NCBI GenBank assembly: GCA_963665775.2 | Contig: CAXXTF010000002.1 | Coordinates: 320,001-384,000, forward strand | DNA length: 64,000 nucleotides | Source: Dehalococcoidia bacterium | GTDB lineage: Bacteria > Chloroflexota > Dehalococcoidia > SM23-28-2 > RBG-16-64-32 | Direction of reading: 5' to 3' | Shown here: positions 21,542 to 53,793 of the stretch, piece after piece | How the letters are laid out: every line of letters begins with the position of its first letter | How positions within the stretch are numbered: the first letter of the stretch is position 1 | Position numbers and translations under genes: made by a program | The notes under the pieces: model-generated | What the model was told of the DNA's origin: nothing | Database searches by the model: none | What the model saw: only the letters and a program-made list of their open reading frames with translations

Positions 21542-21614
21542 CTGCTGCTTACTCCGGGAGTCTAGCCATCAATGGCGGGGGCCACGGGGGCGCCAGCCCC
21601 TTACATCTAAGTGA

Positions 21615-21661: not shown

Positions 21662-21669
21662 ACGCTCTC

Positions 21670-23264: not shown

Positions 23265-23383
23265 AGCCTTCCTCTAGCCGCCACACGACCCCAATCTAAT
23301 CCTGCCGGTCGTCACGGCCCATTCAGACAGTGTCGCGCTGGCTCTCCAGGCTTACGATAGCGACGGAGTATTACCCCCCACCC

Positions 23384-30767: not shown

Positions 30768-30769
30768 CC

Positions 30770-31716
30770 GGTTCTGTCAGAACTCAGGGCGCCAATGCCG
30801 CGGAGATGAATCTCGGTTCGAAATCCGAACCGATTACGCCGCTGCCATCTCCGCCGTCAACGCTTTCTATCTCTCTAGGAAGACTCGACGTCTCTCTGGC
30901 AACGACACCTGCTTGCCAATGGGCGGGCGGATGCGCAAGTACTGACGCAACTCTTCGAACGCCGAGCAGAAGCGCTTCGCCGACTCCATTCGCTTGAACC
31001 CCAGCATGGGGTAGTAGCGCTGTTTTATGGCCCGATGGTCCTGCTCGATACGATTGTTCAGGTACCGGCTCTGCCGGTGCAAGACCTTCCGTCCCAGTAT
31101 CCAGCGGATCGCCTTTCCGTAGGCCGGATGCTGATCGGTGGTGAGGCGCAACGGCTTGTGGGTCGTGACGTCGGCCAGCCGCCGTAGAAAGAGACGGGCA
31201 GCCGCTCTATCCCTTCGCTCACTCAGCATCGAGTCCAGGAGATTGCCGTCCGGGTCAATGGCGCGGTACAGGTAACGCCAACGACCGCTGACCTTCACGT
31301 AGGTCTCATCTAGATACCAGGAGAGACCTCTTGTCTGGCCGCGCCGCCGGGTACGCAGTTGTTCGCCCAGAAGAGGAGCAAACCGGAACTCCCAGGCCCG
31401 TACCGTCTCGTGCGTGACCTCGTAGCCTCGCTGAAGGAGCAGTTCGGCGACATCGCGGAACCCGAGCTTGTAGCGCAGCCGCCAGAGGACCGCCAACAGG
31501 ACGATGTCGGTGGGGAACTGGAGCTCGTTGTATGGCGTGCCGGTGCGCTCGTTAAAGCGACGGTGGCAAGACCTACACGAGAACCTATGGTAGCCCAGGG
31601 TGGAGCGGTGCTTCCGTTTGCTGGTTGCTGTGGATCGGCAATGCGGGCAGTTCATGGGTAGCTCCTCTCCTACATTGAGACAAGCTTACCCCCGCGCCCT
31701 GAGTTCTGACAGAACC
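30770..31716 (-). mobile_element. IS6-family element, 947 bp, late nonsense codon
   Basis: Both IRs; transposase 31655..30867 is 11 aa shorter than sister copies (W to TAG). Confidence 0.93.
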
Positions 31717-32229: not shown

Positions 32230-32313
32230 ACTGACTCCTAGAGTCTTTGAGGCGGATAAGATAGCGCCAGCGCTGGCTATCAGACCAGAGCCGGCTAATA
32301 GAAGGAGCGTGGC

Positions 32314-33492
32314 ATGCGGAGCATGAGCCTGACGACGGCTGGCCTGGCCCTAGTTGCCGTGATCGGCGTGGTTGTGGTGGGGTTGGCGCTGGCCGTGTCC
32401 CCGGCGCGGGGCCAGGACGACATCACCTACAACGTGACTATAGAGAACCTCACAGGCGGACAGCCCTTCACGCCGCCACTGGTCGTGGCGCACTCCGACC
32501 AGATAGACCTCTTCAAGCTGGGCCTGGCGGCGACCGCTGAGCTGAAAGAGTTAGCCGAGAACGGCAACAACGATCCCCTTGTGGCCCTGTTCGGCGGCTC
32601 CGATGCGGTCTTCGACATGGAGACCGGCACGGGACCCATCCTCCCCGGCGAGTCGGCTATCATCACCGTCGAGGCTCCGGAGGGAAGTCTGCTATCTGTG
32701 GCCGCGATGCTCATCTGCACGAACGACGGCTTTACCGGCGTGGACTCCCGGCCGTTGCCTGCCAGCGGGTCGGACTCCATCGACGTTAACTCCTACGATG
32801 CGGGCACGGAGCTGAACACCGAGGATTTCGCCCATATAGTTCCGCCTTGCCAGGCGCTGATCGGCGTCACTTCTGATGACGAAGGCACGGGCATGAGCGA
32901 CCCGACGCTGGTCGAGGGCGGGTTCATCGCACCCCACATCGGAATCCTGGGCGGCACCGACCTGACCATGTTCGATCACGGCTGGACCGATCCGGTCGCC
33001 AGGATCACGGTCAACGTGATGCCTTCGCCACCCCCGGGGGGGGAGCCACCGGTGTTCAGCGCTGCTCGCTTTACCGGGACCGCCACCATCGATGGAGTTC
33101 CCCTGCCCGACAACCACCCGGGCATCGGCGCCCAGGTCAACGGAATCAACTGCGGAAGCGGATTGATCACCGGCGGCACCTACACCATTGACGTGGCCTC
33201 CGATCTCACAGGAAAGGAAGGGTGCGGCAAGCCAGGTGACACAGTAGTCTTCGTGGTCCTCGGAGAGGGCGATCCGGGCGGTCAGGAGTTCGACCAACAA
33301 GGAATCTGGGACAACACCAAAACGACCGAACTGAACCTGACACTCACCACGGAGCCAGGCGGGCTGCCCCCCACCGGTGGGCCTCCCGGTGGTGCCGATA
33401 GCGCCTCGCCTTTGGTTTATGTTCTCCTAGCGTTGGGCGGTCTGGCAGTACTGGTTGGCTCTGCTGGACTCTTCCGGCGCCTCAACCGGTAA
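32314..33492 (+). CDS. Secreted Spondin_N-domain protein with LPxTG-like sorting signal
   Basis: YNVTIENLT..QPFTP, AMLICTNDGF, YDAGTE; LPPTG + TM + RRLNR. Confidence 0.85.
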   Translation: MRSMSLTTAGLALVAVIGVVVVGLALAVSPARGQDDITYNVTIENLTGGQPFTPPLVVAHSDQIDLFKLGLAATAELKELAENGNNDPLVALFGGSDAVFDMETGTGPILPGESAIITVEAPEGSLLSVAAMLICTNDGFTGVDSRPLPASGSDSIDVNSYDAGTELNTEDFAHIVPPCQALIGVTSDDEGTGMSDPTLVEGGFIAPHIGILGGTDLTMFDHGWTDPVARITVNVMPSPPPGGEPPVFSAARFTGTATIDGVPLPDNHPGIGAQVNGINCGSGLITGGTYTIDVASDLTGKEGCGKPGDTVVFVVLGEGDPGGQEFDQQGIWDNTKTTELNLTLTTEPGGLPPTGGPPGGADSASPLVYVLLALGGLAVLVGSAGLFRRLNR

Positions 33493-33508
33493 GCTCATAG
33501 CGTCTCCA

Positions 33509-33541
33509 GCTAAACGGGCCCCTTTGCCGGGCCCGTTTAGC
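33509..33541. terminator. 13-bp perfect hairpin after the spondin gene
   Basis: GCTAAACGGGCCC-N7-GGGCCCGTTTAGC; no long U-tract. Confidence 0.55.
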
Positions 33542-33850
33542 ATGGTTCGGCTGTATCTGCCGGAGCGTCGAGCCACCCTTCGGCGTCCCACAGGCGGGCC
33601 TCGGCGGCCTCCAGCTCGCCGCCAAACAGTGACGCCCAGGCAACCCAAACGCTGAGCACGGGCCTAGGAGGGGCAAGCTCGTCTGGTAGCGTCTTCAACC
33701 AGCCAGACAACGTAGCTTCCTGTCCACCGGTGAACATCGATGGCGCTGCCAGCTCGACTAGGGCCGCCGCTCGCTCGAATTCCTTGGCGACAAGAGCATG
33801 GCGGACTGCATCGGCCCGCAGACCATTTGCTCGTACCACCCGCTCGCCCG
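33537..33850 (-). pseudogene. MalT-like LuxR regulator internal fragment
   Basis: NGLRADAVRHALVAKEFERAAALVE...WLKTLPDE...AEARLWDAE. Confidence 0.7.
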
Positions 33851-34031
33851 ACGACAATGTCTATCGGCAAGACGGGTAGACGCATCGAGTGGCCCCACAG
33901 AAACGGCAGCTTACATTGCTGCCTACATGCGGACAGGCTGCGGCGGGGTGAGCAGCGACACTATGCAGACTTAGTGTTGGTCGCCCAACCGTCTGATAAG
34001 GCCCTCGGTGACATGAACGAAGGGTATTTGG

Positions 34032-34577
34032 CTAATCTCTGCTGGCGCGGCGCGCTGCCTGCTCGTTGTCCCGTTGGACACTGCCGAAGCGAGTTAGTTC
34101 GTGTCTGAGGTCGAGGGGGGCCACCACGGCGCGGCTATCGAATTCGCCCCATCGGTCCCGGGGAACCATCCACATTACCTCGAACTCATTGCCATCGGGA
34201 TCGCGCCCATAGAGCGACTTGGTAGCCCCGTGATCGCTCTGGCCAGTGAGCGCACCTAGATCGGCCAGCAGGGAGGCAGCCTCGGCCAGATCCTCAATCT
34301 TGGCCACTTCCCAGGCCAGATGGTAGAGTCCGGTAGATCCGGGCGCCGGCTGCGCGGCCGTCGGTCCCACCTCCAGAAGCCCAAGGTCATGGTGGTTGCT
34401 GAATCCGCGGGAGCGCAGGAAGGCCATCTTCCCCGCTTCGCGGGCGATCTCTTGGAATCCGAAGGCTAGCTGGTAGAATTCCACCGACCGGTTCAGGTCC
34501 CGAACGTATAGGACGGCGTGATTCAATCGCGTAACCCGAACGAAAGTGGCGGACTCCTTGGTGTCCAAGTCACTCAT
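34032..34577 (-). CDS. VOC/glyoxalase family protein
   Basis: LNHAVLYVRDL, NHHDLGL, GLYHLAW, DHG..SLYGRDPDGNEFEV. Confidence 0.92.
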   Translation of the reverse strand: MSDLDTKESATFVRVTRLNHAVLYVRDLNRSVEFYQLAFGFQEIAREAGKMAFLRSRGFSNHHDLGLLEVGPTAAQPAPGSTGLYHLAWEVAKIEDLAEAASLLADLGALTGQSDHGATKSLYGRDPDGNEFEVMWMVPRDRWGEFDSRAVVAPLDLRHELTRFGSVQRDNEQAARRASRD

Positions 34578-34589
34578 AATATGCTCCTT

Positions 34590-35327
34590 TCAGATTCGGC
34601 CCTTCCATATCCCCACTGGTTTGAACTGCATTGGCACATCCACAAGGATGAGCTCGCTCCGATTAACCGCACGGATGCGAAGATCGGGTTCGTCCGTCAC
34701 CTTGGCCGCGTCGCCAGTATGCAGGTGCTCTTCGAAGAACCGGGCCGCGCCATTGATCAGATATGCATACACGCCACGGCGGGCGCCAATCTCGTGCGCG
34801 ACCTCAACGCCAGGCTCCAGCGAAGCGATGTGGACGGACGCGTCCTGATGAAGCTGGACACTGTCGCCTCCTTCGGGACCGATGACCTTCAGGAGCCTGT
34901 TGGTGCGGTCTTCGAGCGTAAAGACACGCTGCTCGACTCCTGGCTTGAGGTCAGGTGTGTCTGGGAGGATCCAAATCTGGACGAATCGCATCGGTTCGTC
35001 TTTCGACGCGTTCTGCTCGGAGTGGAGCGCCCCTGAGCCCAGCGTCATGCGTTGCACCGACCCGGCCGGTAGTGGTCCATATGAGCCTCCGACGTTGTCC
35101 TCGTGTCCGAACGTGCCTTCCACGACATAGGTGAGCCCTTCGACGTCGCGGTGTGGGTGAAGCGGCCAGGTGGCACCGGGGGTCAGGCGGTCGTCGTTGA
35201 ATACGCGCATCGCCCCGAAGCTTTCATTCTCGGGATCGTTGTACGTCTCAAACGAAAAGTGCCAGCGGGCGTGATACCAGTCGCCCACGACTTCGTAGAT
35301 TTCACTATTGCGACGAACTCTGATCAC
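34590..35327 (-). CDS. Pirin family protein
   Basis: WHFSF..Y.DP, RVFNDD, HPHRDVE, HSEQN, QIWILP; GTG start after GGGAG. Confidence 0.92.
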   Translation of the reverse strand: MIRVRRNSEIYEVVGDWYHARWHFSFETYNDPENESFGAMRVFNDDRLTPGATWPLHPHRDVEGLTYVVEGTFGHEDNVGGSYGPLPAGSVQRMTLGSGALHSEQNASKDEPMRFVQIWILPDTPDLKPGVEQRVFTLEDRTNRLLKVIGPEGGDSVQLHQDASVHIASLEPGVEVAHEIGARRGVYAYLINGAARFFEEHLHTGDAAKVTDEPDLRIRAVNRSELILVDVPMQFKPVGIWKGRI

Positions 35328-35572
35328 CGCGATCTCCCTTCCACCGTCCAGATCCGACGGACCCTGAAGGGCGGCGTGGTCCTCCCCCTCAAGCCCGTGC
35401 CGCCACGCTAGTGAGAAAGGATTATAGTACTCCCTTCCGCGCCTCGCAATGAGGGTCGGAATTGGCCACAACCCAAACTCTTGGGTAAAGTTGTCTGCCT
35501 AACCACACAGCCCCGATTCGGGACGGATTGTACGGTTGCCTCAGCGTGGTCTTGCGTCAAGCTGATTCCACC

Positions 35573-35714
35573 GGATCTGTCAGATCTCAGGGCTTAGGCG
35601 CCGCCAGGAACGCGGTCCTGGCCTCACGACGCCCGCCCTCAGATTCGGAGGGCGTCGATTTCTCGCCCTCCAGCATGCCCCGATATGGCTCGAGCCCTGA
35701 GTTCTGACAGATCC
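35573..35714. mobile_element. 142-bp MITE with IS6-type ends
   Basis: GGATCTGTCAGATCTCAGGGCT...AGCCCTGAGTTCTGACAGATCC; no transposase. Confidence 0.85.
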
Positions 35715-35715
35715 C

Positions 35716-36012
35716 TTTAGTCAGGGCTACGTCTCGTCCGAACTGCTGGTTGATAACGCTGATTACCGCACGGCCATCCGCGAGAAGATCGGCTCTGGCG
35801 CCCCCGGCTTCCAAGCTTTGTTCCCGGATGGCGGGATAGTGCCAGCCGACTATGAAGTCGTTTATGCGATCGTGGCCGAATGGGGCGATCGGACTCTTCG
35901 CGACCTCCCTTTCTTCAGCAAGATCAACCTTCGTAAGCATTCACGGAATCTGCGGCGACTGGGATTCAAGGTGACCCACGCTGCGGTGCAAGTTGTCAAT
36001 CCTGACCCATAG
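35716..36012 (+). pseudogene. TIGR04141/DUF6119-like protein C-terminal remnant
   Basis: FSQGYVSSELL...YEVVYAI...LPFFSKINL...RLGFKV; clipped by the MITE. Confidence 0.7.
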
Positions 36013-36096
36013 AAGCCAGAAAGACGGCGTCCGTAGGTTGACGAAATCTCGAACCACAGGTGTCAGCAGATCGAAAATATCCGCAGCGGTCAGGCC

Positions 36097-36170
36097 TGTG
36101 GGGTGCTAAAATTACATCCGTATCTGAAAACGTCATGCGGCCAGCCATTCGTACTCGTGATGTAGACCAC
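36097..36170 (-). mobile_element. rve-IS end with transposase 3' tail
   Basis: 30-bp end plus GLHHEYEWLAA*, same layout as 13820..13890. Confidence 0.8.
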
Positions 36171-36343
36171 TGTGGGGTGCCAAAACCTCATCCGTATCTG
36201 GAGATTCGGATCGGCCAGCCAAGGGATCTGGGTCTTAGATGGCCAGGAGCACCTGCGGAAGTGTCCAACTAGACTCCCTGCCCGGCAAGTAGGTGGTCCA
36301 GCGGCTGGCCTGTTACGTAGGGATAGGGTTTTGGATCCCCACA
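36171..36343. mobile_element. 173-bp MITE-like unit with rve-IS ends
   Basis: TGTGGGGTGCCAAAACCTCATCC...GGATAGGGTTTTGGATCCCCACA. Confidence 0.6.
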
Positions 36344-36348
36344 ATGCT

Positions 36349-36489
36349 CTACGCCTTCCCGATGCGGGACATCTTGCCTCCGCAGACCGGGCAAGGCCCC
36401 TGGGTTGCTGGCCGTCCGTTCTTGAGGGTCACAGATTTGGCGTCGCGAATTTCTCTCATCGCCTTGCACACCAGGCAGTAACCCTGCGT
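36349..36489 (-). pseudogene. DUF5679 paralog with ACG in place of ATG
   Basis: Same RBS AAAGGAGGCTGCC; (T)QGYCLVCK...CPVCGGKMSRIGKA*; TTGACA-N16-TATGAT upstream. Confidence 0.8.
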
Positions 36490-36694
36490 GGCAGCCTCCT
36501 TTGGATGGATAGGTGGCCCAATCATACGATGGCCAAGAGGGCTGTCAAGGGCTAAGCACGGCGGGGTGCCAAGATGTCATCCGTGTCTGATGGGCTAGCC
36601 ACATCTTAGGCGCTCGCGGCCAAGAACCCGGAGGGTGTAAAGCGGTGGGCGCTCGAGCGGTGCCAGCGGAGCGAACGGTAAGAGTTCGCACTGG

Positions 36695-36853
36695 CTCGAG
36701 TTCGACTATGCCGTCGTGGTGGATACGGACAAGTTTAACGCGAAGGAGTTCTACGTTGCTTCGACTCGCGGCACGAGCGGATTAACTGTTCTATCACCAA
36801 GTCCCGTAGTGAGGTTCGACGGTGTCTCGAACACTTTGGAGGAGTACCCATAA
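36695..36853 (+). pseudogene. UvrD-like helicase C-terminal remnant (GajB-like)
   Basis: LEFDYAVVVD...FYVASTRGTSGLTVL (helicase motifs V/VI). Confidence 0.65.
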
Positions 36854-37099
36854 GTTGGTCCGCTGCTCCGATAACAGCTATCAACCATTGTGGGGTGCCA
36901 AATTGTTATCCGTATCTGAACGATGTCCTGGATATACCAGTTGCCCGCCGTTCACGTGGCTCGCATGCCACAGGTCGTGAGTGGCTCGACGAGGGTTCCA
37001 GGGCAAGGGGGCAAATGAACGGCGACTCCGGGATTCTAACTCCGGGAGTCTAGCGGCCAGCCGCCGATTCGCTGTGGCCAGCCCTTTACATCTGAGTGA

Positions 37100-37144
37100 T
37101 GGAGGGCCCGGTGGGATTCGAACCCACGACTCCCGGATTTAAAG
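37100..37144 (-). other. tRNA-Lys-like 3' half, putative att core (copy 2, loop CTTTAAA)
   Basis: Same T-arm/acceptor as copies 1 and 3; one loop substitution; no 5' half. Confidence 0.8.
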
Positions 37145-37224
37145 TTCGGGGGCTGCCCGCGCCTTGAGTTGTCCTCCTCTTAAATATGGGAGGTAACCAC
37201 TTCTTGCGTGCAGTTATGCGCTGT

Positions 37225-38076
37225 CTACCTCGGATTTAGGCTCCAATTCCCGTCAGCCCGGACATCCCAATAACAGGGTCCCTCGGCGAACGAGACGACC
37301 GTGCTGCCGGTGACAGCCCCGATTTCATTTTGGACGAGGTCAAACCCACCAAAGCAGAACAGCCAGACGATGAAGTTACGCGATCCGTCATGGGATACCT
37401 CCCACGGTGCCGCATTCGTACTTGAGGGTATGAAGAGCCCGCTTATCGCGTCTCCAGATCCACCGAAGCTGGACGATGTCACTATCCCTATGGGCTTAAT
37501 CGTAGCCGTCCAGGAACCATCAGCATTAATTTCCAGGAAGAATGGTTCAGCCCCCACGATTGCGCGAGTGCCCTGGTATCGACCGATCTCGTTGACGAGG
37601 AGGTCCTCTTCTCCGTTCTGAAAGACCTTGACGATGAAGTTGCTCGGCCCGGCGTGAGTAAAGGTTATGGTCGAGATCGCCGACGGTGGAGTTATCGGGT
37701 CCGTCACGACTTGGCCGACTCCCTGCAGGACTATCGGTGTCGGTGCCGGCGTAGGCACCGGCGTTGGCGTCGGACTAGCGGTTGGAGTTGCGGTCGGAGC
37801 GATTGTTGAAGTCGGCTCCGGTGTCCGAGTCGGGGTAGCGGCTGGCGTGGCACCAGGAGTGGGACTAGGTGTGGCAGTGGGTGTGGCTGTTGCGCCCCCG
37901 ACGATCCCGTCCGATTCGTCGTCTCCATCTCCGGAGCCCGCCGCGATCGAGATAATGACAATCCAGAGTAGCCCGGTGCCGACCGCGGCACTGATCTGAC
38001 CCCATCTGAATGGTATAAACCGCCGCCAGACGGGTAGCAGGACCGTCCACTCAAGGATCAGTCGGATGCGATCCAT
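37225..38076 (-). CDS. Membrane-anchored PT-linker protein with two repeated beta domains
   Basis: TM, PT-rich linker, twice H.G..NFIV...LVxNEIG...ADG.W. Confidence 0.8.
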   Translation of the reverse strand: MDRIRLILEWTVLLPVWRRFIPFRWGQISAAVGTGLLWIVIISIAAGSGDGDDESDGIVGGATATPTATPSPTPGATPAATPTRTPEPTSTIAPTATPTASPTPTPVPTPAPTPIVLQGVGQVVTDPITPPSAISTITFTHAGPSNFIVKVFQNGEEDLLVNEIGRYQGTRAIVGAEPFFLEINADGSWTATIKPIGIVTSSSFGGSGDAISGLFIPSSTNAAPWEVSHDGSRNFIVWLFCFGGFDLVQNEIGAVTGSTVVSFAEGPCYWDVRADGNWSLNPR

Positions 38077-38343
38077 CGCTAGAATCCTGCCTTTACTGGC
38101 CAGCTATGTCGGCGCTTCGTATTCACTCCGCTTCAGCTCCTCGATCCAGGTGGTCATGTCTGCCACCGACCTCATTGACTCTACGACTACCCACAGCATC
38201 TGATCCGGCGGTGGGTGCTTGGCAAGGTAATCAGCAAGGCAAACGACCTCACGCCGCTGGCAATGCGCCGAAAAGGTGGGTGCCTGATGGCGGATGTGAA
38301 AACAGCCGGGGAACCTCGGATCTATGATGGCTACCTTTACGAT

Positions 38344-38715
38344 TCATTCTGCATTTCTAGGGCGCTCTATCAAAGGGAGATTGACCGACTCGTCATCAGT
38401 AACGGTGAGGGTAGCGACCTGTTTGCCATCGATAAGGAGGTCAACGTGATTGTCACCCCATCGAACAAAAACCCTGATGATGCCCTCCGGGCTGGGAACG
38501 GCAGCGCTTATAGACCCAGTAAGGATTAGTTCTTCTTTATGAAGTACGTTCGCCAACTTGACCTGAATCGTTCCATCAGGAAGCTTCGTGGGCTGTGCGC
38601 TTACCTCCGCGTGGATACGGGTCGGAAACCAGTAGCTGCTCCCGTTCTTGTGCCAGTCTTGGTGCGGGTGCTGCAGCCCCAGCATGATCGTTCCTGTGTC
38701 TCTTACATCTGCCAT
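38344..38715 (-). CDS. Hypothetical protein (beta-rich)
   Basis: GAGGGAG RBS; W..NHVDLLIDGKQVA resembles a LamG-like strand. Confidence 0.6.
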   Translation of the reverse strand: MADVRDTGTIMLGLQHPHQDWHKNGSSYWFPTRIHAEVSAQPTKLPDGTIQVKLANVLHKEELILTGSISAAVPSPEGIIRVFVRWGDNHVDLLIDGKQVATLTVTDDESVNLPLIERPRNAE

Positions 38716-38889
38716 CGTAGCTCCCTCTCTGTTCAGGTACTTCCCCGCTTCTTGCGAAGCGTGCCCTTGCTATGGCCATCTGTCAATATTTTTGGCCATT
38801 TGGCCATAGAGGTAGGTGCCTGATGAACCGTCGTCAAGCGCAGGGCGCGGTGATGGGCGATAGAAAAGAAATGCGCCCGGTCTACGATG

Positions 38890-39005
38890 TTCCTTTCCCT
38901 TTGATGCTCAGCTTCGCGTTCCTTTAGCGGTCGCTCCGTAATTCCGCCGTGCTTGATCTTGTTGCCTTCTTTGAACTCGTATTTCCTATAGGTTCTCGCC
39001 GGCCT
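38890..39005 (-). pseudogene. Small GIY-YIG-like protein remnant
   Basis: KYEFKEGNKIKHGGITERPLKEREAEHQ; start unclear. Confidence 0.45.
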
Positions 39006-39199
39006 GCATCCCCTGGCCCCGCGTGGAAGGCTTCCGGCCCGCCGTTGGTACACATGATAATTCTAGCGTCCTTCACTTGCCTATTGCCAGCCGTACCAGG
39101 CAAAGGTGGCAAACGAGCGGAGACCCCCGGATTCTCACTCCGGGAGTCTAGCCATCATTGGCAAGGACCACGGGGGGCCAGCCCGTTACATTTAAGTGA

Positions 39200-39246
39200 T
39201 GGAGGGCCCGGTGGGATTCGAACCCACGACTCCCGGATTAAAAGTC
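39200..39246 (-). other. tRNA-Lys(TTT)-like 3' half, putative att core (copy 3)
   Basis: Near-identical to 21615..21661. Confidence 0.85.
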
Positions 39247-39254
39247 ACACTCTC

Positions 39255-39500
39255 AGGGCCTAATTGCTAAGGCCTCAGATTCGATAATCGGGGTGAAACT
39301 GGGGTAAGAACAGGGTGAAATCGGGACCTCGCTGAGGGGCCCAATTGCTAAAAGGCTGAAATTAAATCTGCGGTAAACTTGCGGTGAATCTTCGGCGGAT
39401 TTACGTGAGCGATCGCCTCCGCCGCGAGGGCCCTAATTGCTAAGGTAATTGTTAAGGCGCTAGATTCAGAATCTTCAGGATACCTTCAGGGAATCTTCAG
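39255..39500. repeat. ATTGCTAA box plus 11-bp phased repeat array (second copy)
   Basis: As 21670..21895, with two extra 11-bp CTTCAGG units. Confidence 0.75.
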
Positions 39501-40513
39501 GCTAATCGGGCATTCCCCAAGATCCGACTCTCCTCCGCTAGCCTCCCCTTCAAGCGATCTGCCGGGCTGAACAGGACGTGCGCCTGCGCCGCCTTCTCCG
39601 CATCGTAGGTCGCCGTGTAGCGCCGCAGCATCGCCGGCGTGGAGTGGCCAAGAAGCGTCTGAACGTCAATCTCCCTCGCTTGCTGCTCGATAGCCCAGGT
39701 GGCGAAGGTGTGGCGGAAGCGGTGCGGATGTACGTTGGTTAGAGAGGCCTTCTGGCCCAGCCTCTGGAAGATGGTCCGCAAGGCGGTCCGGCACAGGGAC
39801 TGTCCTCTGCATGTCAGAAATAGCCGCCCGGGGCCCCGGCCTCGAAATCCCTCCAGGTAGTGCTGGATGGCCCGGCGAGCCTCATCCCCAAACCGGACCA
39901 CTCGCTGTTTGTTCCCCTTCCCGTGACTGATGTGCATGCGCCCAGTCTCAAAGTCGACCTCTTCCAGATCAAGGTTACATAACTCGCTGGCCCTGAGGCC
40001 GGTGTCCAGCAGGACGAGGATGAGGGCCCGGTCTCTGGCCCCTTTGTGGGTCGAGGGATCGCACCAGGCGAGGAGGCGAAGGACATCCTCCTGGGAGAAC
40101 GGTCGAATCACCTTCTGAGGCACCTTGATGTTCTTCACCTTGGAGAACGGGTTCGTGGTGACGTAATCGTGACGCAGGAGCCAGGAGAAGAATGCCCTGG
40201 TCTCCCGCTGCCTCCGCCACTGGGTCATGGCGGAAACGCCAGTATCGGCCACGCACCCCAGGAACTGGTAGACGTGGGCAGCAGTGAAGGAGGCTGGATC
40301 CTCGGGTAGTCTCTTCTGCCCGATGACGTTCGTGAAGATCCCAAGGGACTCCCGATAAGACCGGATGGTCTCCTCCGACTTCCCCTCGATGCGACAGGAG
40401 GTGAGGTAGAGTTCGATGATCCCCGTCAGGTCCCGCTGGTGGCTGCCGTTGCCGTCGCCGTTTCTCTCCATGCTCTCCCCCACACTTAGATAAGAAGGCC
40501 GTGTTCCATTCAT
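39497..40513 (-). CDS. XerC/D-like tyrosine recombinase, close paralog of 21890..22906
   Basis: Same length and catalytic R-K-HxxR-H-Y motifs. Confidence 0.92.
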   Translation of the reverse strand: MNGTRPSYLSVGESMERNGDGNGSHQRDLTGIIELYLTSCRIEGKSEETIRSYRESLGIFTNVIGQKRLPEDPASFTAAHVYQFLGCVADTGVSAMTQWRRQRETRAFFSWLLRHDYVTTNPFSKVKNIKVPQKVIRPFSQEDVLRLLAWCDPSTHKGARDRALILVLLDTGLRASELCNLDLEEVDFETGRMHISHGKGNKQRVVRFGDEARRAIQHYLEGFRGRGPGRLFLTCRGQSLCRTALRTIFQRLGQKASLTNVHPHRFRHTFATWAIEQQAREIDVQTLLGHSTPAMLRRYTATYDAEKAAQAHVLFSPADRLKGRLAEESRILGNARLA

Positions 40514-40754
40514 CACTCTGCTGCTGCGGGAAGTCAAGCGCCGTTGCAGAGAACGCGGGAGGAAACAGGAGCGAATCGGGCGGATAGGCCCAATTCAGGC
40601 TGCGGGAGAGGGGTCGGCACACACTAGAACGAGCGAGGTGCACACACAGGCGCGCTACCTTTTCAGCTTCGGATGTATTTTGACCCCCCACAATCGCTCA
40701 CTGCCCTTAGCCGGATGTATGATTGTGCCACCTATCTGTCCAAAGGAGGCTGCC

Positions 40755-40768
40755 ATGCAGGGTTACTC
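40755..40768 (+). pseudogene. DUF5679 5' stub cut by an rve-IS end
   Basis: Same promoter/RBS and ATGCAGGGTTACT, then CATTTTGCCCCCCCCACA. Confidence 0.75.
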
Positions 40769-40789
40769 CCATTTTGCCCCCCCCACACT

Positions 40790-40986
40790 GAGAGTTGCTG
40801 GCGGAGGGCCATATTCTCCAGGACGAGGTGATGCTGAGATCTAAAGGTGGCGCGCAGGGCAGAGCGAAGGAGCAGCAGGTGATCAATGCCGGGCCTCCGT
40901 GACTTCGTAATGTCCTAACGCTGGCCCAACTAGCTCAGTGCGTCAACCCTCCTAGATACGGATGACATTTTGCCCCCCCCCCCACA
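40790..40986 (-). mobile_element. rve-IS transposase 5' head and end
   Basis: Aligns by eye with 14800..14991. Confidence 0.8.
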
Positions 40987-41138
40987 CCCACAACTTCGGC
41001 TAACAGAACCCAGCTGTACAGATAGGGATGACATTTTGCCCCCCCCCACAGGTCCAGCAGCTGGCCTTTTGAATACGGATGAAGTTTTGGCACCCCACAG
41101 AGCGATTCGGGGACGCACCGCCCATGCCGAGGACGACG

Positions 41139-41879
41139 CTACGTTGCTGGCGTATCAAAGCGGCTATGGATCACTTTGTACTTGTTCCGTAGTCTCACAA
41201 AGTCCCAGAGCTCTCCGTGCTTCTCGCGAGTGACTATTATGATCCCGGCTTCTTTGAGTTCCTTCACGCCGCGAGTCCATGTGTCCTCAGAGAGTCCATA
41301 CTGCAAGCGCGCCCTGTCGGGTCTGACATGGGCGCCTTGTTCACGATCTTTCTCTCCCACCAGTTCTGACAGAATGAGGAGGAGGGCGATCGCGCGACCT
41401 GAGAGTCGAACGATCCACCCGTTCGTCCAGAACGTAACGGGAAGATTCACCCAGGTGCTCCTTGGGCGGGAGTATGGTTTGCCATCTCCGGTATGACTCC
41501 GTAGGTAGACTCGTCGCGGCCGGCCACGGCGTCGGTTATCTATGGAGATGAGTTTGTGCTGCTGCAACGAAGCAATAGCCTCGCTTACTCGGCGCGCACC
41601 GTTAATTTTAGGGCTAGGGAGGTTGAGCATCTCGGCCCACACCCGTGCCGGCTGGGGCCGAACATCGAATGGATCGCTGGTGGCTAGCAGGTTCATTGAC
41701 AGGAAAAGTTTCAGCCTCACCTCCCCTCCGCGGCCTCCGCGCATCAACGTGGCCAACGGAGGCGGCCGTCCGTCGTCGCGACGGATGAAGTCTTTTGCAA
41801 GGGGGACAACGCTGCGTCTTGATGTAGTAACCACCCAGTGGAGGAGACGGCGACCATCGGTAGTAACGGTGTTTTTCAA
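41139..41879 (-). CDS. Hypothetical protein with two predicted winged-helix domains
   Basis: AAGGAG RBS + TTG; WAEMLNL...ARRVSEAIASLQQHKLI and YGLSEDTWTRGVKELKEAGII...RNKY. Confidence 0.75.
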   Translation of the reverse strand: MKNTVTTDGRRLLHWVVTTSRRSVVPLAKDFIRRDDGRPPPLATLMRGGRGGEVRLKLFLSMNLLATSDPFDVRPQPARVWAEMLNLPSPKINGARRVSEAIASLQQHKLISIDNRRRGRPRRVYLRSHTGDGKPYSRPRSTWVNLPVTFWTNGWIVRLSGRAIALLLILSELVGEKDREQGAHVRPDRARLQYGLSEDTWTRGVKELKEAGIIIVTREKHGELWDFVRLRNKYKVIHSRFDTPAT

Positions 41880-42334
41880 ATTCGTGCTCCTTGTTGCGGG
41901 GGGAGCGGGGCTGCTGTGGTAGTGCTAGGCGTTGCAGGCGTTCCTCGGGTTGCAGGCATTATCGGTCCAATCGAATCCGTTTCCGCCGTCGGCGCCACCG
42001 CAATAGATGCATTGGTTTATTGGTACGCAACGCCAGGATAGTACCGCAACAATAGCATGTTACCCCCTACATATCCTCCTTGCGGTCCCGCCATAAAGGT
42101 GTCGCGGGTGTATTTGACCGGGTACGTTGCCGCCCGATAATAATCATAGACGAAAAGAGGCCTAGGACTGAAGCACCAGCCCTAGGTCTAGATAGATACA
42201 CCGCAGGGATGGGAATCACCTCAGGTGTCTCCGCGCTAATCTCCGATCCGTCTAGCGAACGACTTTTGCGAGCCTATGGATGTCAGGTGGGAGCGGGCCG
42301 CTGGGGTTGGCCTTCGCAGCATCCGAGGAAATCC

Positions 42335-42430
42335 ACTGCTCTCTGGCAGCAGATGGCCGCGATCTATCCGCCCTATAACGACTACCAGGCGCGCACCGAG
42401 CGCGAGATCCCAGTCGTCATTCTGGATCTG
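42335..42430 (+). pseudogene. Deazaflavin-dependent nitroreductase C-terminal fragment
   Basis: [28 protein letters not shown]. Confidence 0.7.
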
Positions 42431-42454
42431 GACCAGTTTGGCGGCGTGCTGTGT

Positions 42455-42625
42455 CTTGACGGTCTGGTGCAGTAGGTCGGGCAACGCGAATAGATCCCGG
42501 GTGCCCTGTAGAAAGAGCATCGGGACGGCGATATTCACTAAGTGAGCGTCTCGGATGCGTTCGGGCTTGCCGGGCGGGTGGAGCGGGTAGCCGAGAAACA
42601 CGAGACCCGAAGATGCCACTCTACA
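42455..42625 (-). pseudogene. Alpha/beta-hydrolase fragment
   Basis: [23 protein letters not shown]...[12 protein letters not shown]. Confidence 0.7.
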
Positions 42626-42706
42626 CCTCCCCGACAGCAAGGATGGCCGTGCTTCAATCGCCCCGCCCGGCACGGAGTCCCGCATGAGAAGCGCTATGCC
42701 GTATGA

Positions 42707-43387
42707 CTACTGGGACGAGCCACTGGACTGGACGATCCGCATGTACGCGCTCACCCCGAGGAGGGCACCAAGAGGCGGGCCAAGCCAGTAAACCCACTGA
42801 TCCTCGAATGTGAAAGTCGCGAGAGCGGGTCCAAGTGAGCGAGCTGGGTTCATTGAGCCACCGGTAAGGGGCCCAGCCAGGATTGCTCCAACGCATACGG
42901 CTCCACCAACTCCGAGAGCGGCAGTTACGGATGAGAGGTCCTGCTTTGAGATGACGATGGCGACGACGAGCGCCAATAGCGCAGTGATGGCGATCTCTAT
43001 AGTTAGCGCCTCTCCCAGCGTGACGGAGGGGACTGTCGCACCGAGCTGGACTTTGTTTCCGGCTAGGATCAGCAACAGGAGACTAGCCGCTACGGCTCCA
43101 CCAATCTGGGACGCGATGTAAGCCGGAATGTCACGGTATCGGAACCTACCGTAGACAGCAAGCGCGAAGCTTATCGCAGGATTAAAGTGAGATCCGGACA
43201 CATGCCTGGTAGCATAGACCATCAACCCAATGGCGAGCCCGAACACGATCCCAATTCCGAGGTTGCCTAAAGGCCAATCTGCTGACCCATCGAGAACGAT
43301 TGCCCCCGTGCCCGCAAACACAAAGGCGAAGGTCCCAAGGAACTCAGCCTGGCAGCGGCGAATTAGGGAATTTGTGCTCAAACGCAA
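42707..43387 (-). CDS. MIP/aquaporin channel
   Basis: AEFLGTF, SGSHFNPA, GGSMNPARS, WVYWLGP; start uncertain. Confidence 0.88.
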   Translation of the reverse strand: MRLSTNSLIRRCQAEFLGTFAFVFAGTGAIVLDGSADWPLGNLGIGIVFGLAIGLMVYATRHVSGSHFNPAISFALAVYGRFRYRDIPAYIASQIGGAVAASLLLLILAGNKVQLGATVPSVTLGEALTIEIAITALLALVVAIVISKQDLSSVTAALGVGGAVCVGAILAGPLTGGSMNPARSLGPALATFTFEDQWVYWLGPPLGALLGVSAYMRIVQSSGSSQ

Positions 43388-43567
43388 TTCTTCAAGCGGC
43401 TCCGGCCGAATCCATCCAAGCTCTTCCCGAATTGGATCAATGCGTGTGGAGACTGTTCGCTACCCCGGATAAAAAGTTAATCCTCCGATCCAAGTGCCAG
43501 CGATCGTCGGGGCTCCTCTGCTCGGCGGACGCAACAGGAGACGACCGTTGCCAGCACCTCGCTGAGA

Positions 43568-45760
<2,193 letters not shown>

Positions 45761-49285: not shown

Positions 49286-49400
49286 CTTCCAACTCCTTTC
49301 TTGGTCGGGCGTTGTCCTATAGGATTGCCCCCTCCCCTCAATTCTTAGGCTGGGCCGTGACGAGCCGGACGGATCCGGGTCCTTCGCCTCACCCCGAAAC

Positions 49401-50347
49401 GGTTCTGTCAGAACTCAGGGCGTCAATGCCGCGGAGATGGTTCTCGGTTCGTAATCGGGGCTGATTACGCTGCTGCCATCTCCGCCGTCAGCGCCTGCCA
49501 TCTCGATAGGAAGACTCGACGCCTCTCCGACAAAGACATCTGCCCGCCCATTGGCGTGCGGATGCGCAGGTACTGGCGCAGCTCTTCGAACGCCGAGCAG
49601 AAGCGCTTCGCCGACTCCATTCGCTTGAACCCCAGCATGGGGTAGTAGCGCTGTTTGATGGCCCGGTGGTCCTGCTCGATACGATTGTTCAGGTACCGAC
49701 TCTGCCGGTGCAAGACCTTCCCACCCAGTATCCAGCGGATCGCCTTTCCGTAGGCCGGATGCTGGTCAGTGGTGAGGCGCAACGGCTTGTGGGTCGTGAC
49801 GTCGGCCAGCCGCCGTAGAAAGAGACGGGCAGCCGCTCTATCCCTTCGCTCACTCAGCATCGAGTCCAGAAGATTGCCGTCCCGGTCAATGGCGCGGTAC
49901 AGGTAACGCCAACGACCGCCGACCTTCACGTAGGTCTCATCTAGATACCAGGAGAGACCGCTTGTCTGGCCGCGCCGCCGGGTACGCAGTTGTTCGCCCA
50001 GAAGAGGAGCAAACCGGAACTCCCATGCCCGTACCGTCTCGTGTGTGACCTCGTAGCCTCGCTGAAGGAGCGGTTCGGCGACATCGCGGAACCCAAGCTT
50101 GTAGCGTAACCGCCAGAGGACCGCCAACAGGACGATGTCGGTGGGGAACTGGAGGTCGTTGTAGGGCGTACCGGTGCGCTCGTTAAAGCGACGGTGGCAA
50201 GACCTACACGAGAACCTATGGTAGCCTAGGGTGGAGCGGTGCTTCCGTTTGCTGGTTGCTGTCGATCGGCAATGCGGGCAGTTCATGGGTAGCTCCTCTC
50301 CTACATTGAGACAAGCTTACCCCCGCGCCCTGAGTTCTGACAGAACC
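49401..50347 (-). mobile_element. IS6-family element, 947 bp, transposase 49465..50286
   Basis: Both IRs, full 273-aa ORF. Confidence 0.95.
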
Positions 50348-51086: not shown

Positions 51087-51161
51087 GCGGGCGTAGCTCA
51101 GTGGTAGAGCATCTGCTTCCCAAGCAGAGGGCCGTGGGTTCGATCCCCATCGCCCGCTCCA
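51087..51161 (+). tRNA. tRNA-Gly(CCC)
   Basis: Full cloverleaf GCGGGCG...TCTGC TTCCCAA GCAGA...CGCCCGC T CCA, 75 nt. Confidence 0.97.
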
Positions 51162-51312: not shown

Positions 51313-52259
51313 GGTTCTGTCAGAACTCAGGGCGCGGGGGTAAGCTTGTCTCAATGTAGGAGAGGAGCTACCCATGAACTGCCCGCATTGCCGATCGACA
51401 ACAACCAGCAAACGGAAGCACCGCTCCACCCTAGGCTACCATAGGTTCTCGTGTAGGTCTTGCCACCGTCGCTTTAACGAGCGCACCGGTACGCCCTACA
51501 ACGACCTCCAGTTCCCCACCGACATCGTCCTGTTGGCGGTCCTCTGGCGGTTACGCTACAAGCTTGGGTTCCGCGATGTCGCCGAACTGCTCCTTCAGCG
51601 AGGCTACGAGGTCACACACGAGACGGTACGGGCATGGGAGTTCCGGTTTGCTCCTCTTCTGGGCGAACAACTGCGTACCCGGCGGCGCGGCCAGACAAGC
51701 GGTCTCTCCTGGTATCTAGATGAGACCTACGTGAAGGTCGGCGGTCGTTGGCGTTACCTGTACCGCGCCATTGACCCGGACGGCAATCTCCTGGACTCGA
51801 TGCTGAGTGAGCGAAGGGATAGAGCGGCTGCCCGTCTCTTTCTACGGCGGCTGGCCGACGTCACGACCCACAAGCCGTTGCGCCTCACCACTGACCAGCA
51901 TCCGGCCTACGGAAAGGCGATCCGCTGGATACTGGGTGGGAAGGTCTTGCACCGGCAGAGTCGGTACCTGAACAATCGTATCGAGCAGGACCACCGGGCC
52001 ATCAAACAGCGCTACTACCCCATGCTGGGGTTCAAGCGAATGGAGTCGGCGAAGCGCTTCTGCTCGGCGTTCGAAGAGCTGCGCCAGTACCTGCGCATCC
52101 GCACGCCAATGGGCGGGCGGATGTCTTTGTCGGAGAGGCGTCGAGTCTTCCTATCGAGATGGCAGGCGCTGACGGCGGAGATGGCAGCAGCGTAATCAGC
52201 CCCGATTACGAACCGAGAACCATCTCCGCGGCATTGGCGCCCTGAGTTCTGACAGAACC
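51313..52259 (+). mobile_element. IS6-family element, 947 bp, transposase 51374..52195
   Basis: Both IRs; inverted near-identical twin of 49401..50347. Confidence 0.95.

Positions 52260-53793
<1,534 letters not shown>

What the first reader, a model, noticed from the sequence alone, without database searches (positions are those of the whole stretch)
36097..41099. Nested rve-IS ends enclosing the integrase/att module as cargo
Seen: four left-facing 30-bp ends (36097, 36171, 36559, 36889) and five right-facing ends (40692, 40787, 40986, 41050, 41099). 36097-36170 carries the transposase 3' tail and 40790-40986 its 5' head, so one IS like 13820-14991 has its core replaced by ~4.6 kb that starts and stops at further ends. 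No clean target-site duplication was found. Inference: this family inserts into itself and builds cargo-carrying non-autonomous transposons that could move att platforms away from the tRNA locus.
Basis: partly seen in the sequence, partly recalled or inferred. Interest (0 to 1): 0.7.

Follow-up and report, generated by a model that had tools for sequence, protein, structure and literature searches.

The report
Insertion-sequence scrapyard around integrase remnants
The clustered transposon ends are real, but they look like debris of an old insertion-sequence family piled into the remains of tRNA-Lys integrating elements, not a working cargo-carrying transposon.

Summary
Observation confirmed. 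Nine end-like 30-mers lie in 36097-41099, where 0.14 are expected, and there is also an 18-bp stump at 40770-40787.

The composite-transposon reading is not supported:
- No second copy of the unit exists in the genome.
- End 40693 is an inherited scar inside a 1.65-kb duplication of 21536-23139.
- End 36560 sits beside an inverted copy of the same small gene.
- The genome has only one intact transposase gene.
- The missing target duplication says nothing, because 0 of 7 intact copies in three genomes have one.

The "cargo" is the far part of a tandem array of tRNA-Lys integrative elements: one intact Xer-like integrase and two attachment copies 2.1 kb apart. It is collinear with the array at the real tRNA-Lys gene about 1.07 Mb away.

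One thing is unexplained. In two related genomes, ends of this family flank the same integrase-att module and face inward.

Short-read contigs from three studies bridge every end junction.

The parts
36097..36170 (+). Left-end fragment of the rve-type IS: terminal repeat 36097-36126 plus the last codons of the transposase region, IS positions 1-72.
   Evidence: 89% to reference IS positions 18-72; 91% to C2 218214-218279; PWM 47.9.
36171..36344 (+). Complete 174-bp MITE of the same family. The left end abuts the IS fragment directly; the right end (36315-36344) is degenerate.
   Evidence: 36170-36344 vs C1 800024-800199 at 71%; 36169-36309 vs C2 1428926-1428785 at 92%; PWM 49.7 and 15.5; pair I9.
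36343..36527 (-). Inverted copy of a small DUF5679 gene segment (ORF 36349-36525, 58 aa). It is cut off exactly at the MITE tip.
   Evidence: 88% to window 23270-23086; Pfam DUF5679 1.3e-15; alignment A1.
36560..36589 (+). Solo end 32 bp from the DUF5679 copy. This is the same arrangement as ends 23061 and 40693 beside their DUF5679 copies.
   Evidence: PWM 35.0; alignment A1.
36590..36888 (+). Unique 300 bp holding a stop-bounded reading-frame fragment of about 70 aa with no family match.
   Evidence: No other genome copy; translation; Pfam finds none at E<=1.
36889..36918 (+). Solo end with the rare CCAAATTGT variant, 76 bp outside the arm of att copy c and facing it.
   Evidence: PWM 45.8; the same variant lies at the same side of the att module in G030 (L030 2244).
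36995..37147 (-). att copy c. 37100-37147 equals the 3' 48 nt of tRNA-Lys(UUU), with one change in the anticodon loop. It is followed on the minus strand by an arm of about 100 nt with a hairpin.
   Evidence: D2, D3; alignment with the tRNA-Lys gene at C2 1423856-1423930.
37148..39092 (-). Integrase-less remnant of an integrative element (ORFs 37225-38076, 38344-38715, 38733-39053). It is collinear with the element next to the true tRNA-Lys gene.
   Evidence: 37034-37189, 37197-37228, 38100-38175 and 39126-39246 match C2 1428709-1428552, 1425896-1425865, 1424297-1424222 and 1424002-1423884, in that order. No integrase domain. One weak PHROG hit.
39093..39247 (-). att copy b: tRNA-Lys 3' fragment 39200-39247 plus arm, in direct repeat with copy c 2.1 kb away.
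   Evidence: D2 94%, D3 83%.
39253..39443 (.). Three copies of an 18-nt repeat between att b and the integrase stop codon. They may be arm-type integrase-binding sites (inference).
   Evidence: D6; a similar motif lies next to the att fragment in G030.
39497..40537 (-). Intact Xer-like tyrosine integrase (346 aa).
   Evidence: Pfam Phage_integrase 1.2e-39; NCBIfam XerC/XerD models below their cut-offs; PHROG 1 integrase 7.9e-54.
40538..40693 (-). Conserved leader upstream of the integrase, ending in a degenerate family end (40665-40693). This is a scar inherited together with the integrase paralogues.
   Evidence: 39122-40770 vs 21536-23139, 90%; alignments (also C1 671605-671939); PWM 12.8.
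40717..40770 (+). 5' stump of a second DUF5679 gene copy (ribosome-binding site plus first codons). It forms a 54-nt, 91% inverted repeat with 36474-36527.
   Evidence: I1; alignment A1.
40770..40787 (-). Stump of a right-facing end: the outer 18 bp only.
   Evidence: Sequence; (D7).
40791..40984 (-). Right-end fragment of the IS, about positions 970-1172: the leader, the first codons of the transposase and the terminal repeat.
   Evidence: 82% to reference; 86.6% to C1 841881-842073; PWM 43.5.
40985..41050 (-). Solo right-facing end (41020-41050) with 35 bp of its interior. It abuts the next fragment.
   Evidence: D4, 94% to 40954-40984; PWM 43.6.
41051..41100 (-). Right 50 bp of a second MITE copy. 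Its end is 96% complementary to the end at 36170-36197.
   Evidence: 87% to C1 800148-800194; I3; PWM 42.1.

Best explanation
The region is a decayed mosaic, not a working element.

Core (36.9-40.7 kb). This is the far part of a tandem array of integrative elements that use the 3' half of tRNA-Lys(UUU) as their attachment site. It holds one intact Xer-like integrase followed by att copy b, then a 2-kb integrase-less remnant followed by att copy c.

Invasion by an insertion sequence. An old, nearly extinct IS of the rve DDE type (1172 bp, about 30-bp terminal repeats, no target duplication) and its roughly 174-bp MITE inserted repeatedly into this mobile DNA and into each other.

Later deletions and copies (inferred steps):
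- Deletions removed one side of each nest, leaving stacks of truncated ends that necessarily face inward. One deletion from the DUF5679 stump at 40770 into the innermost insert would explain the whole four-deep right stack.
- A 1.65-kb segment (att, integrase, scar end, DUF5679) was copied between 21.5-23.1 kb and 39.1-40.8 kb.
- A short piece (DUF5679 plus end) was copied in inverted orientation to 36.3-36.6 kb.

What could still act. The integrase on the two direct att copies, and, in principle, the single intact transposase (13856-14815) on good ends.

Shown versus inferred. The anatomy, the homologies and the statistics are shown. The order of events, and deletion as the way partners were lost, are inferred.
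For: The ends are real and the family is old.
- the end matches are far above chance.
- two full copies and many fragments at 68-98% identity.
- one intact transposase gene; the C1 copy carries a TAG stop.

Internal ends sit in copied segments.
- 39122-40770 is 90% identical to 21536-23139.
- 36343-36527 is 88% identical to 23270-23086, inverted.
- The ends at 40693 and 36560 therefore travel inside larger copied segments.

The scar is inherited: the same scar plus leader lies upstream of an integrase stump at C1 671605-671939.

The core is array DNA.
- the att copies equal tRNA-Lys from the anticodon loop to CCA, plus an arm.
- the order att b, remnant, att c is collinear with tRNA-Lys, element, fragment at C2 1423.9-1428.7 kb.
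- a 92% identical integrase lies further along that same array, at C2 1438462-1439454.
- the ORF just right of the stack (41139-41879) resembles a replication initiator, so the right stack sits inside mobile DNA.

Nesting.
- 5 of 65 ends abut family DNA, against 0.23 expected.
- of 15 neighbouring pairs of ends <=600 bp apart, 10 face the same way, 3 converge (whole MITEs) and 2 diverge.

Stability: the same junctions appear in contigs of 4 of 4 runs from 3 studies. One run differs by about 25 substitutions or indels, so the arrangement is stable across slightly different strains.

Published background (PMC9330008, passages read): recombination between repeated IS and MITE copies is a common route to deletions.
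Against: - No genome of the same genus was available, so neither an empty site nor the order of events could be checked.
- Five inward-facing ends on the right and four of five on the left is tidier than independent decay predicts (9 of 10 or better: p = 0.011 if independent). Stack geometry and the duplications explain most of it.
- The best-matching pair of ends in the region is 36170-36197 with 41073-41100 (96% complementary). One intact transposase gene exists, so mobilisation in trans cannot be excluded.
- Ends of this family flank the same integrase-att module in G030 and G027 far more often than chance. Pure decay does not explain this.
Confidence: 0.7

Rival explanations
1. The stacked ends bound a non-autonomous composite transposon, which the family's transposase moves in trans and which carried the integrase-att platform here from the tRNA-Lys locus.
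For: - Good inverted pairs exist: 36170-36197 / 41073-41100 at 96%, and 36096-36123 / 41073-41100 at 89%.
- One intact transposase gene lies 21 kb away.
- MITE derivatives show that the family can be moved in trans.
- There is precedent: an integron truncated by the same 439-bp MITE at both ends and thought to be mobilised by them (PMC3934969, abstract only).
- The lack of a target duplication is no argument against, because 0 of 7 intact copies have one.
- In G030, 3 of 4 IS copies have an extra same-facing solo end 1.4-2.1 kb away, enclosing other genes.
Against: - No second copy of the unit, or of any end-to-end sub-unit, exists in the genome.
- Ends 40693 and 36560 are scars inside duplicated segments. 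End 36171 already has its partner at 36344.
- The copy at 21.5-23.3 kb has only one end.
- In G030, integrase-att modules 96-99% identical to each other have different IS-end flanks, about 92% identical with indels. The ends were therefore not copied along with the modules.
- The two 99.9% identical IS copies in G030 moved alone.
- The arrangement is the same in the strains of three studies.
Confidence: 0.08
2. Site preference, not decay, explains the cluster. Either the IS family prefers to insert beside integrase-att modules and into its own relatives, or the integrase-att module integrates into or beside IS ends. Under this reading the stacks mark a hot spot.
For: - In G030, 5 of 5 full-length integrase copies have a family end 35-420 bp away facing the gene: 4 strong (PWM 42.6-53.5) and 1 weak (11.4). 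In G027 it is 1 of 1, with two stacked ends.
- At the genome-wide end density, the chance of >=4 of 5 is 2.5e-7. At ten times that density it is 0.002.
- The end fragments differ in type and in distance from the module, so the events look independent.
- The self-abutting excess is 5 observed against 0.23 expected.
Against: - Both kinds of element sit in the same plastic regions. 63 of 65 ends lie in 27% of the genome, though that zone was drawn after seeing the ends.
- Survival of insertions in dispensable DNA would give the same picture without any targeting.
- The distances from tip to module are not constant.
- No target motif was found.
- 0 of 12 loci with full-length integrase homologues in other genomes have a family end within 500 bp. 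Apart from G057 (no transposase match), those genomes were not checked for the IS family.
Confidence: 0.17
3. The stacked ends are an assembly artefact at short repeats.
For: The genome is repeat-rich. No single listed contig spans the whole stretch, and 39.18-39.75 and 39.96-40.74 kb are covered only by short pieces.
Against: - Contigs from 4 of 4 runs (3 studies) bridge every end junction.
- The ends are only about 30 bp long and diverged from each other, so they are not long identical repeats.
- The one reported 'joint', 35715 to 40616, has 26 letters on its shorter side. It fits a paralogous locus at C2 196.6-197.0 kb, not a deletion.
Confidence: 0.03

Closest known systems
IS481 / IS3-type insertion sequences (rve DDE transposase) and their MITEs
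   Same: - A single transposase ORF with an HTH and an rve_3 domain.
- TGT...ACA termini with imperfect inverted repeats of about 30 bp.
- Length of 1172-1175 bp.
- Short non-coding derivatives with the same ends: 174 bp here, 136-238 bp in relatives.
   Different: - The transposase scores below the curated cut-offs of both models: IS481 102.9 of 224 bits, IS3 88.3 of 160 bits.
- No target-site duplication in 0 of 7 intact copies, including two that are 99.9% identical.
- That these families normally leave 3-15 bp duplications is recalled, not checked in a call.
Composite and MITE-flanked transposons, e.g. the integron bounded by two 439-bp MITEs in Acinetobacter (PMC3934969, abstract only); composite transposons, TMos and tIS as defined in PMC9330008 (passages read)
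   Same: Family ends in inverted orientation lie on both sides of an integrase plus attachment sites.
   Different: - The flanks here are not two like copies of an IS or MITE, only truncated stacks.
- There is no transposase inside, so it is not a tIS.
- There is no second copy and no sign of insertion as a unit.
- The inner ends are explained by duplications.
Tandem arrays of tRNA-targeting integrative elements (tyrosine integrase; att is the 3' part of a tRNA gene)
   Same: - The integrase is followed by a 48-nt copy of the tRNA-Lys 3' part.
- The att copies are direct repeats.
- The same order of parts is found at the real tRNA-Lys gene.
   Different: - No intact tRNA-Lys gene heads the array in the window; ARAGORN finds only tRNA-Gly at 51087.
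- The att copies carry about 100 nt beyond the tRNA end.
- The fragments are highly multi-copy and scattered: 7 aligned in this genome and at least 12 in G030.
Nested ('Russian doll') transposon insertions and solo-end debris in IS-rich genomes
   Same: New ends abut truncated interiors of older family members, and the stacked ends face the same way.
   Different: In every one of the 5-7 cases here, the host element's other half is missing. In a plain nested insertion both halves remain.

Membership tests
rve-type IS (IS481/IS3 group) | DDE transposase with an rve core domain | tested here: met
   Pfam rve_3 1.1e-12 (above its cut-off); HTH_32/HTH_21 below cut-off.
rve-type IS (IS481/IS3 group) | Reaches the curated IS481 or IS3 family model | tested here: not met
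   NCBIfam IS481 102.9 bits (cut-off 224); IS3 88.3 bits (cut-off 160). It is related to both but is a curated member of neither.
rve-type IS (IS481/IS3 group) | Terminal inverted repeats bounding a unit present in several copies | tested here: met
   Two full copies in this genome. 1174-bp copies bounded by the same repeats in G027 and G030.
rve-type IS (IS481/IS3 group) | Short target-site duplication at insertion | tested here: not met
   0 of 7 intact copies (2 in G000, 1 in G027, 4 in G030) show a direct repeat at the tips. This includes the 99.9% identical pair in L030 and L034.
MITE (for 36171-36344) | Short, non-coding, carries the ends of an autonomous IS, present in several copies | tested here: met
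   174 bp with both ends (PWM 49.7 and 15.5). Copies at C1 800025-800198 and C2 1428750-1428926.
Composite / non-autonomous cargo transposon (for 36097-41100) | The same end-to-end unit is present at another locus | tested here: not met
   BLAST of 35001-42500 and of the whole window against the genome finds only pieces, each in a different context.
Composite / non-autonomous cargo transposon (for 36097-41100) | Target-site duplication flanking the outer ends | tested here: inconclusive
   None for any of 21 end pairs. The family leaves none even in young intact copies.
Composite / non-autonomous cargo transposon (for 36097-41100) | Empty site in a relative, or a presence/absence difference between strains | not testable with these tools
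   The nearest genomes held belong to other genera and share no synteny. The four runs laid all carry the same arrangement.
Composite / non-autonomous cargo transposon (for 36097-41100) | A matching transposase is available in trans | tested here: met
   One intact gene at 13856-14815. The C1 copy has a TAG stop and the others are partial. Activity was not tested.
tRNA-targeting integrative element | Tyrosine recombinase next to the attachment site | tested here: met
   Phage_integrase 1.2e-39. The att fragment lies 250 bp past the stop codon.
tRNA-targeting integrative element | att identical to the 3' part of a tRNA gene, as direct repeats | tested here: met
   48 nt from the anticodon loop to CCA match tRNA-Lys(UUU). 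Copies b and c are direct repeats 2.1 kb apart.
tRNA-targeting integrative element | Array headed by the intact target tRNA gene | tested here: not met
   No tRNA-Lys gene in the window. The gene is at C2 1423856-1423930, where a collinear array exists.
Transporter IS (tIS) | Transposase and passenger genes lie together between one pair of ends | tested here: not met
   No transposase-like ORF lies between 36097 and 41100.

The most novel reading that the evidence does not exclude
The IS family and the tRNA-Lys integrase-att modules may be mechanistically coupled.

The pattern. In three genomes of this bacterial family (relatives' records are titled Dehalococcoidia or Chloroflexota), ends of an rve-type IS that leaves no target duplication lie 30-450 bp from the integrase-att module, on either side, and always face it. 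Attachment fragments are scattered in many copies far from the tRNA-Lys gene.

Two possible mechanisms:
- The transposase moves attachment platforms, using one good end plus a second or surrogate end.
- The integrase places its module into IS ends.

Either would seed new landing sites for integrative elements around the chromosome.
Probability: 0.12. Interest if true: 0.65.

Novelty: new member of a known kind. Interest (0 to 1): 0.3.

Why it matters
In itself the locus is ordinary: mobile-element debris in a plastic part of the genome. Three points go a little further.

1. It is a worked example of how inward-facing stacks of solo ends, which look like a composite transposon, can arise from nesting, deletion and segmental copying.

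2. The IS family appears to insert without a target duplication, which is unusual for an rve-type transposase. For this family the usual "look for direct repeats" test therefore fails.

3. The family's ends sit next to the same integrase-att module in three genomes of a poorly studied, mostly uncultured group. If that link is mechanistic, it would show how attachment sites for integrative elements spread away from their tRNA gene.

Tried and rejected
Empty-site test. Both flanks (32300-36096 and 41101-45700) were searched in 20 relatives. Only single conserved genes matched (katG at up to 84%), with no synteny, so the test was not possible.

Target-duplication test. Negative for all end pairs. 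It was then shown to be uninformative.

Same-orientation nesting resolved by homologous recombination. I considered this as the source of the stacks. In two of the five abutting cases (13819 and C2 1428066) the host element is in the opposite orientation, so it cannot be the general cause. That stacked ends face the same way is a geometric necessity in any case.

One split Russian doll. I considered pairing the left and right stacks as the two halves of a single nest. The expected partners of the two outer right-hand fragments are not found left of 36097 at PWM >=11.

33 plus and 32 minus. A global strand count is not informative for this question.

Joint 35715 to 40616 in the laid contigs. 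Rejected as a deletion form, because no such junction exists in the genome and a paralogous locus explains it.

Searches that found nothing further:
- Rfam on 35000-42000 finds only the T-arm of the two tRNA fragments, as sub-threshold tmRNA hits.
- Pfam on the 70-aa frame at 36641-36850 finds nothing. My by-eye impression of a helicase C-terminus is unsupported.
- Earlier findings of this scan: none.
- The literature search for IS481 with solo or nested ends returned only eukaryotic transposon papers.

Full report
SETTING

The window is C2:320001-384000 of a 2.35-Mb, two-contig genome with 63% G+C. Records of same-family relatives are titled Dehalococcoidia or Chloroflexota MAGs.

The reference element at 13820-14991 is 1172 bp long. 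It has TGT...ACA tips, imperfect terminal repeats of about 30 bp, and one minus-strand ORF (13856-14815, 319 aa). That ORF carries HTH and rve_3 domains. It scores below the curated cut-offs of both NCBIfam models: IS481 102.9 of 224 bits and IS3 88.3 of 160 bits.

The genome holds two full copies, the second being C1 786492-787666 at 96%. It also holds many fragments at 68-98% identity. Only the window's copy has an open transposase frame, because the C1 copy carries a TAG stop.

ARE THE ENDS REAL?

Yes. A fuzzy search with a consensus end gave 45 matches, against 0.33 in shuffles. A position matrix (PWM) built from 30 ends gave 63 hits at score >=12, against 1.0 in block shuffles, and 65 merged hits at >=11.

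Nine of the 65 lie in 36097-41099, where 0.14 are expected:
- Plus-facing: 36097, 36171, 36560, 36889.
- Minus-facing: 36343, 40693, 40982, 41048, 41099.

An 18-bp stump at 40770-40787 makes ten.

Genome-wide there are 33 plus and 32 minus ends. 63 of the 65 lie in three stretches that together make 27% of the genome. I drew that zone after seeing the ends, so it only describes the pattern.

ANATOMY, LEFT TO RIGHT

- 36097-36170: positions 1-72 of the IS, the left end plus the transposase tail.
- 36171-36344: a complete 174-bp MITE. It aligns over its full length with C1 800024-800199 and over 142 bp, at 92%, with C2 1428785-1428926.
- 36343-36527: an inverted, 88% identical copy of 23086-23270, a small DUF5679 gene. 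It is cut off exactly at the MITE tip.
- 36560: a solo end 32 bp further on.
- 36590-36888: 300 unique bp.
- 36889: a solo end.
- 36995-37147: att copy c, 76 bp after the end at 36889.
- 37148-39092: a 2-kb stretch with three unassigned ORFs.
- 39093-39247: att copy b.
- 39253-39443: three 18-nt repeats.
- 39497-40537: an intact Xer-like integrase.
- 40538-40664: the conserved leader upstream of the integrase.
- 40665-40693: a degenerate end.
- 40717-40770: the first 54 bp of another DUF5679 copy.
- 40770-41100: four right-facing ends stacked tip to interior. In order these are the 18-bp stump, IS positions about 970-1172, a solo end with 35 bp of its interior, and the right 50 bp of a second MITE.

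THE CORE IS ARRAY DNA OF TRNA-LYS INTEGRATIVE ELEMENTS

The att copies match tRNA-Lys(UUU) from the anticodon loop to CCA (48 nt). They continue with an arm of about 100 nt that contains a hairpin.

The only tRNA-Lys(UUU) gene is at C2 1423856-1423930; the window has none. That locus is itself an array, with fragments at 1428.6 and 1439.7 kb and a 92% identical integrase at 1438462-1439454.

The window's order of att b, remnant, att c is collinear with tRNA-Lys, first element, fragment at that locus. Four matching blocks occur in the same order, and att c shares both flanks with the 1428.6-kb fragment.

The ORF just right of the stack (41139-41879) gives weak hits to replication initiators. 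The right stack therefore lies inside mobile DNA, not at its border.

WHY THE COMPOSITE-TRANSPOSON READING FAILS HERE

1. No other locus holds the unit or any end-to-end sub-unit.

2. 39122-40770 is a 90% copy of 21536-23139. That segment includes att, integrase, leader, the degenerate end (23061 in one copy, 40693 in the other) and the start of DUF5679. The 21-kb copy has no partner left end. The same leader plus end also lies upstream of an integrase stump at C1 671605-671939. End 40693 is thus an inherited scar.

3. End 36560 sits at the corresponding place beside the inverted DUF5679 copy. It was most likely copied with that gene.

4. End 36171 has its own partner at 36344.

5. The two pieces of the "replaced IS" do not overlap, so whether they come from one copy cannot be tested. 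The right piece is closest to a different sub-lineage (86.6% to C1 841881-842073, against 82% to the reference).

6. Contigs of four runs from three studies show the same junctions. One run differs by about 25 small changes. The arrangement is therefore stable across slightly different strains.

TARGET DUPLICATIONS ARE UNINFORMATIVE

No pair of ends in the region has a target duplication. But neither do the two full copies here, the copy in G027, or the four copies in G030. Two of the G030 copies are 99.9% identical over 1174 bp and sit in different flanks. That makes 0 of 7 intact copies. The family seems to insert without a duplication, which is itself unusual for this kind of transposase. 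What is usual for these families is recalled, not checked in a call.

The family does nest in itself. By a BLAST criterion, 5 of 65 ends abut another family fragment within 8 bp. Family DNA makes up 8.3 kb, or 0.35% of the genome, so 0.23 such cases are expected. Even inside the post-hoc zone only 0.8 are expected.

Two further cases in the right stack are visible by eye. In every case the host element's other half is missing.

Of 15 neighbouring pairs of ends <=600 bp apart, 10 face the same way, 3 are whole MITEs and 2 diverge.

An end that truncates an older element must face the same way as that element's surviving end. Inward-facing stacks therefore follow from nesting plus loss of one side. 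A single deletion from 40770 into the innermost insert would give the whole right stack (inference).

Survival of insertions only in dispensable DNA could produce the same excess without any true targeting.

AN UNEXPLAINED PATTERN IN RELATIVES

G030, a one-contig genome of another genus, has four IS copies and at least 19 ends. It has five full-length copies of an integrase 65-69% identical to the window's.

Each G030 integrase lies in a module of about 1.2 kb. The modules are 90-99% identical to each other, and those of L030, L033 and L037 also carry the tRNA-Lys fragment.

All five integrase copies have a family end 35-420 bp away that faces the gene. Four score strongly (PWM 42.6-53.5) and one is weak (11.4). 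G027 has one such module, with two stacked ends.

At the genome-wide end density, the chance of >=4 of 5 is 2.5e-7. At ten times that density it is 0.002.

The end fragments differ in type and in distance from the module. Modules that are 99% identical have IS flanks only about 92% identical, with indels. The ends were therefore not copied along with the modules, which again argues against end-to-end transposition.

The solo ends at 36889 (window) and L030 2244 (G030) share a rare variant of the repeat and lie on the same side of the att arm.

0 of 12 loci with full-length homologues in other genomes have an end within 500 bp. Apart from G057 (no transposase match), those genomes were not checked for the IS family.

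G030 also carries at least 12 tRNA-Lys 3' fragments in several regions. In addition, 3 of its 4 IS copies have an extra same-facing solo end 1.4-2.1 kb away.

Co-residence in the same plastic regions is the simplest reading. A mechanistic link is my novel case.

COMPARISON WITH KNOWN KINDS

The pieces are all known kinds: an rve-type IS with MITEs, nested insertions and solo ends, and a tandem array of tRNA-targeting integrative elements.

Composite transposons, TMos, tIS and MITEs are as defined in PMC9330008 (passages read).

The locus fails the tests that could be made for a composite transposon. It lacks a transposase between its ends, so it is not a tIS.

VERDICT

The locus is a new, ordinary member of known kinds.

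Two side observations are worth a follow-up: the missing target duplication, and the recurrent flanking of integrase-att modules by family ends.

Noticed in passing
L030 4257-5430 and L034 2211-3384 (G030); window 13820-14991; G000 C1 786492-787666: This rve-type IS shows no target-site duplication in any of 7 intact copies. Two of those copies are 99.9% identical and sit in different flanks. This is unusual for a DDE/rve transposase.
   Followed up: partly
G030 loci L030, L033, L037, L038, L039; G027 locus L035: All five full-length copies of the related integrase in G030, and the one in G027, have a family IS end 35-420 bp away that faces the gene. In L030, L033, L037 and L035 the integrase is followed by the tRNA-Lys 3' fragment. 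The end fragments differ in type and distance.
   Followed up: partly
G030 C1 (about 12 places); G000 (7 places): The 48-nt tRNA-Lys 3' fragment is highly multi-copy and scattered over several regions, not confined to one array at the tRNA gene.
   Followed up: no
L029 2433 / 4536-5709; L030 2244 / 4257-5430; L031 2434-3601 / 5021 (G030): Three of four IS copies in G030 have an extra solo end 1.4-2.1 kb away, facing the same way as the IS end nearest to it. Each encloses unrelated ORFs and could be an 'IS plus cargo' unit.
   Followed up: no
window 7134-8841, 18446-20153, 57080-58787: A 1.7-kb IS with a DDE_Tnp_1_4 transposase (441 aa) is present in about 20 copies at >99% identity genome-wide, three of them in the window. 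It is clearly the active IS of this genome.
   Followed up: no
window 49397-50347 and 51313-52260 (also 1464-2260, 30766-31716): A repeat of about 950 bp occurs in about 8 copies. One inverted pair, 99.4% identical, brackets the tRNA-Gly(CCC) gene at 51087-51161, and a family end lies at 51289.
   Followed up: no
window 2354-2515: A 163-bp repeat occurs in about 17 copies at about 91-92% identity across both contigs. It is probably another MITE.
   Followed up: no
window 35572-35715: A 143-bp element with 22-nt terminal inverted repeats (95% complementary) has copies at C2 196618-196760 (94%) and C2 309792-309934 (84%). At C2 196.6-197.0 kb it lies 85 bp from a homologue of the integrase leader.
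   Followed up: partly
window 33961-35531: A 1571-bp segment (glyoxalase-like and pirin-like genes) is 98% identical to C2 978814-980383. This is a recent segmental duplication that ends 40 bp before the 143-bp element.
   Followed up: no
G000 C2 161193 / 161197 (outside the window): Two family ends lie back to back with their tips overlapping by 5 bp, like an abutted-end junction of two elements.
   Followed up: no
window 13427-13819: The reference IS itself abuts a 393-bp right-end fragment of a diverged relative, whose end is at 13427. The same relative abuts another IS left end at C2 1428066-1428537.
   Followed up: partly
window 36474-36527 and 40717-40770: A 54-nt inverted repeat (91%), made of two DUF5679 gene starts, brackets the 4.2-kb core. 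It could allow inversion of the core by homologous recombination.
   Followed up: no
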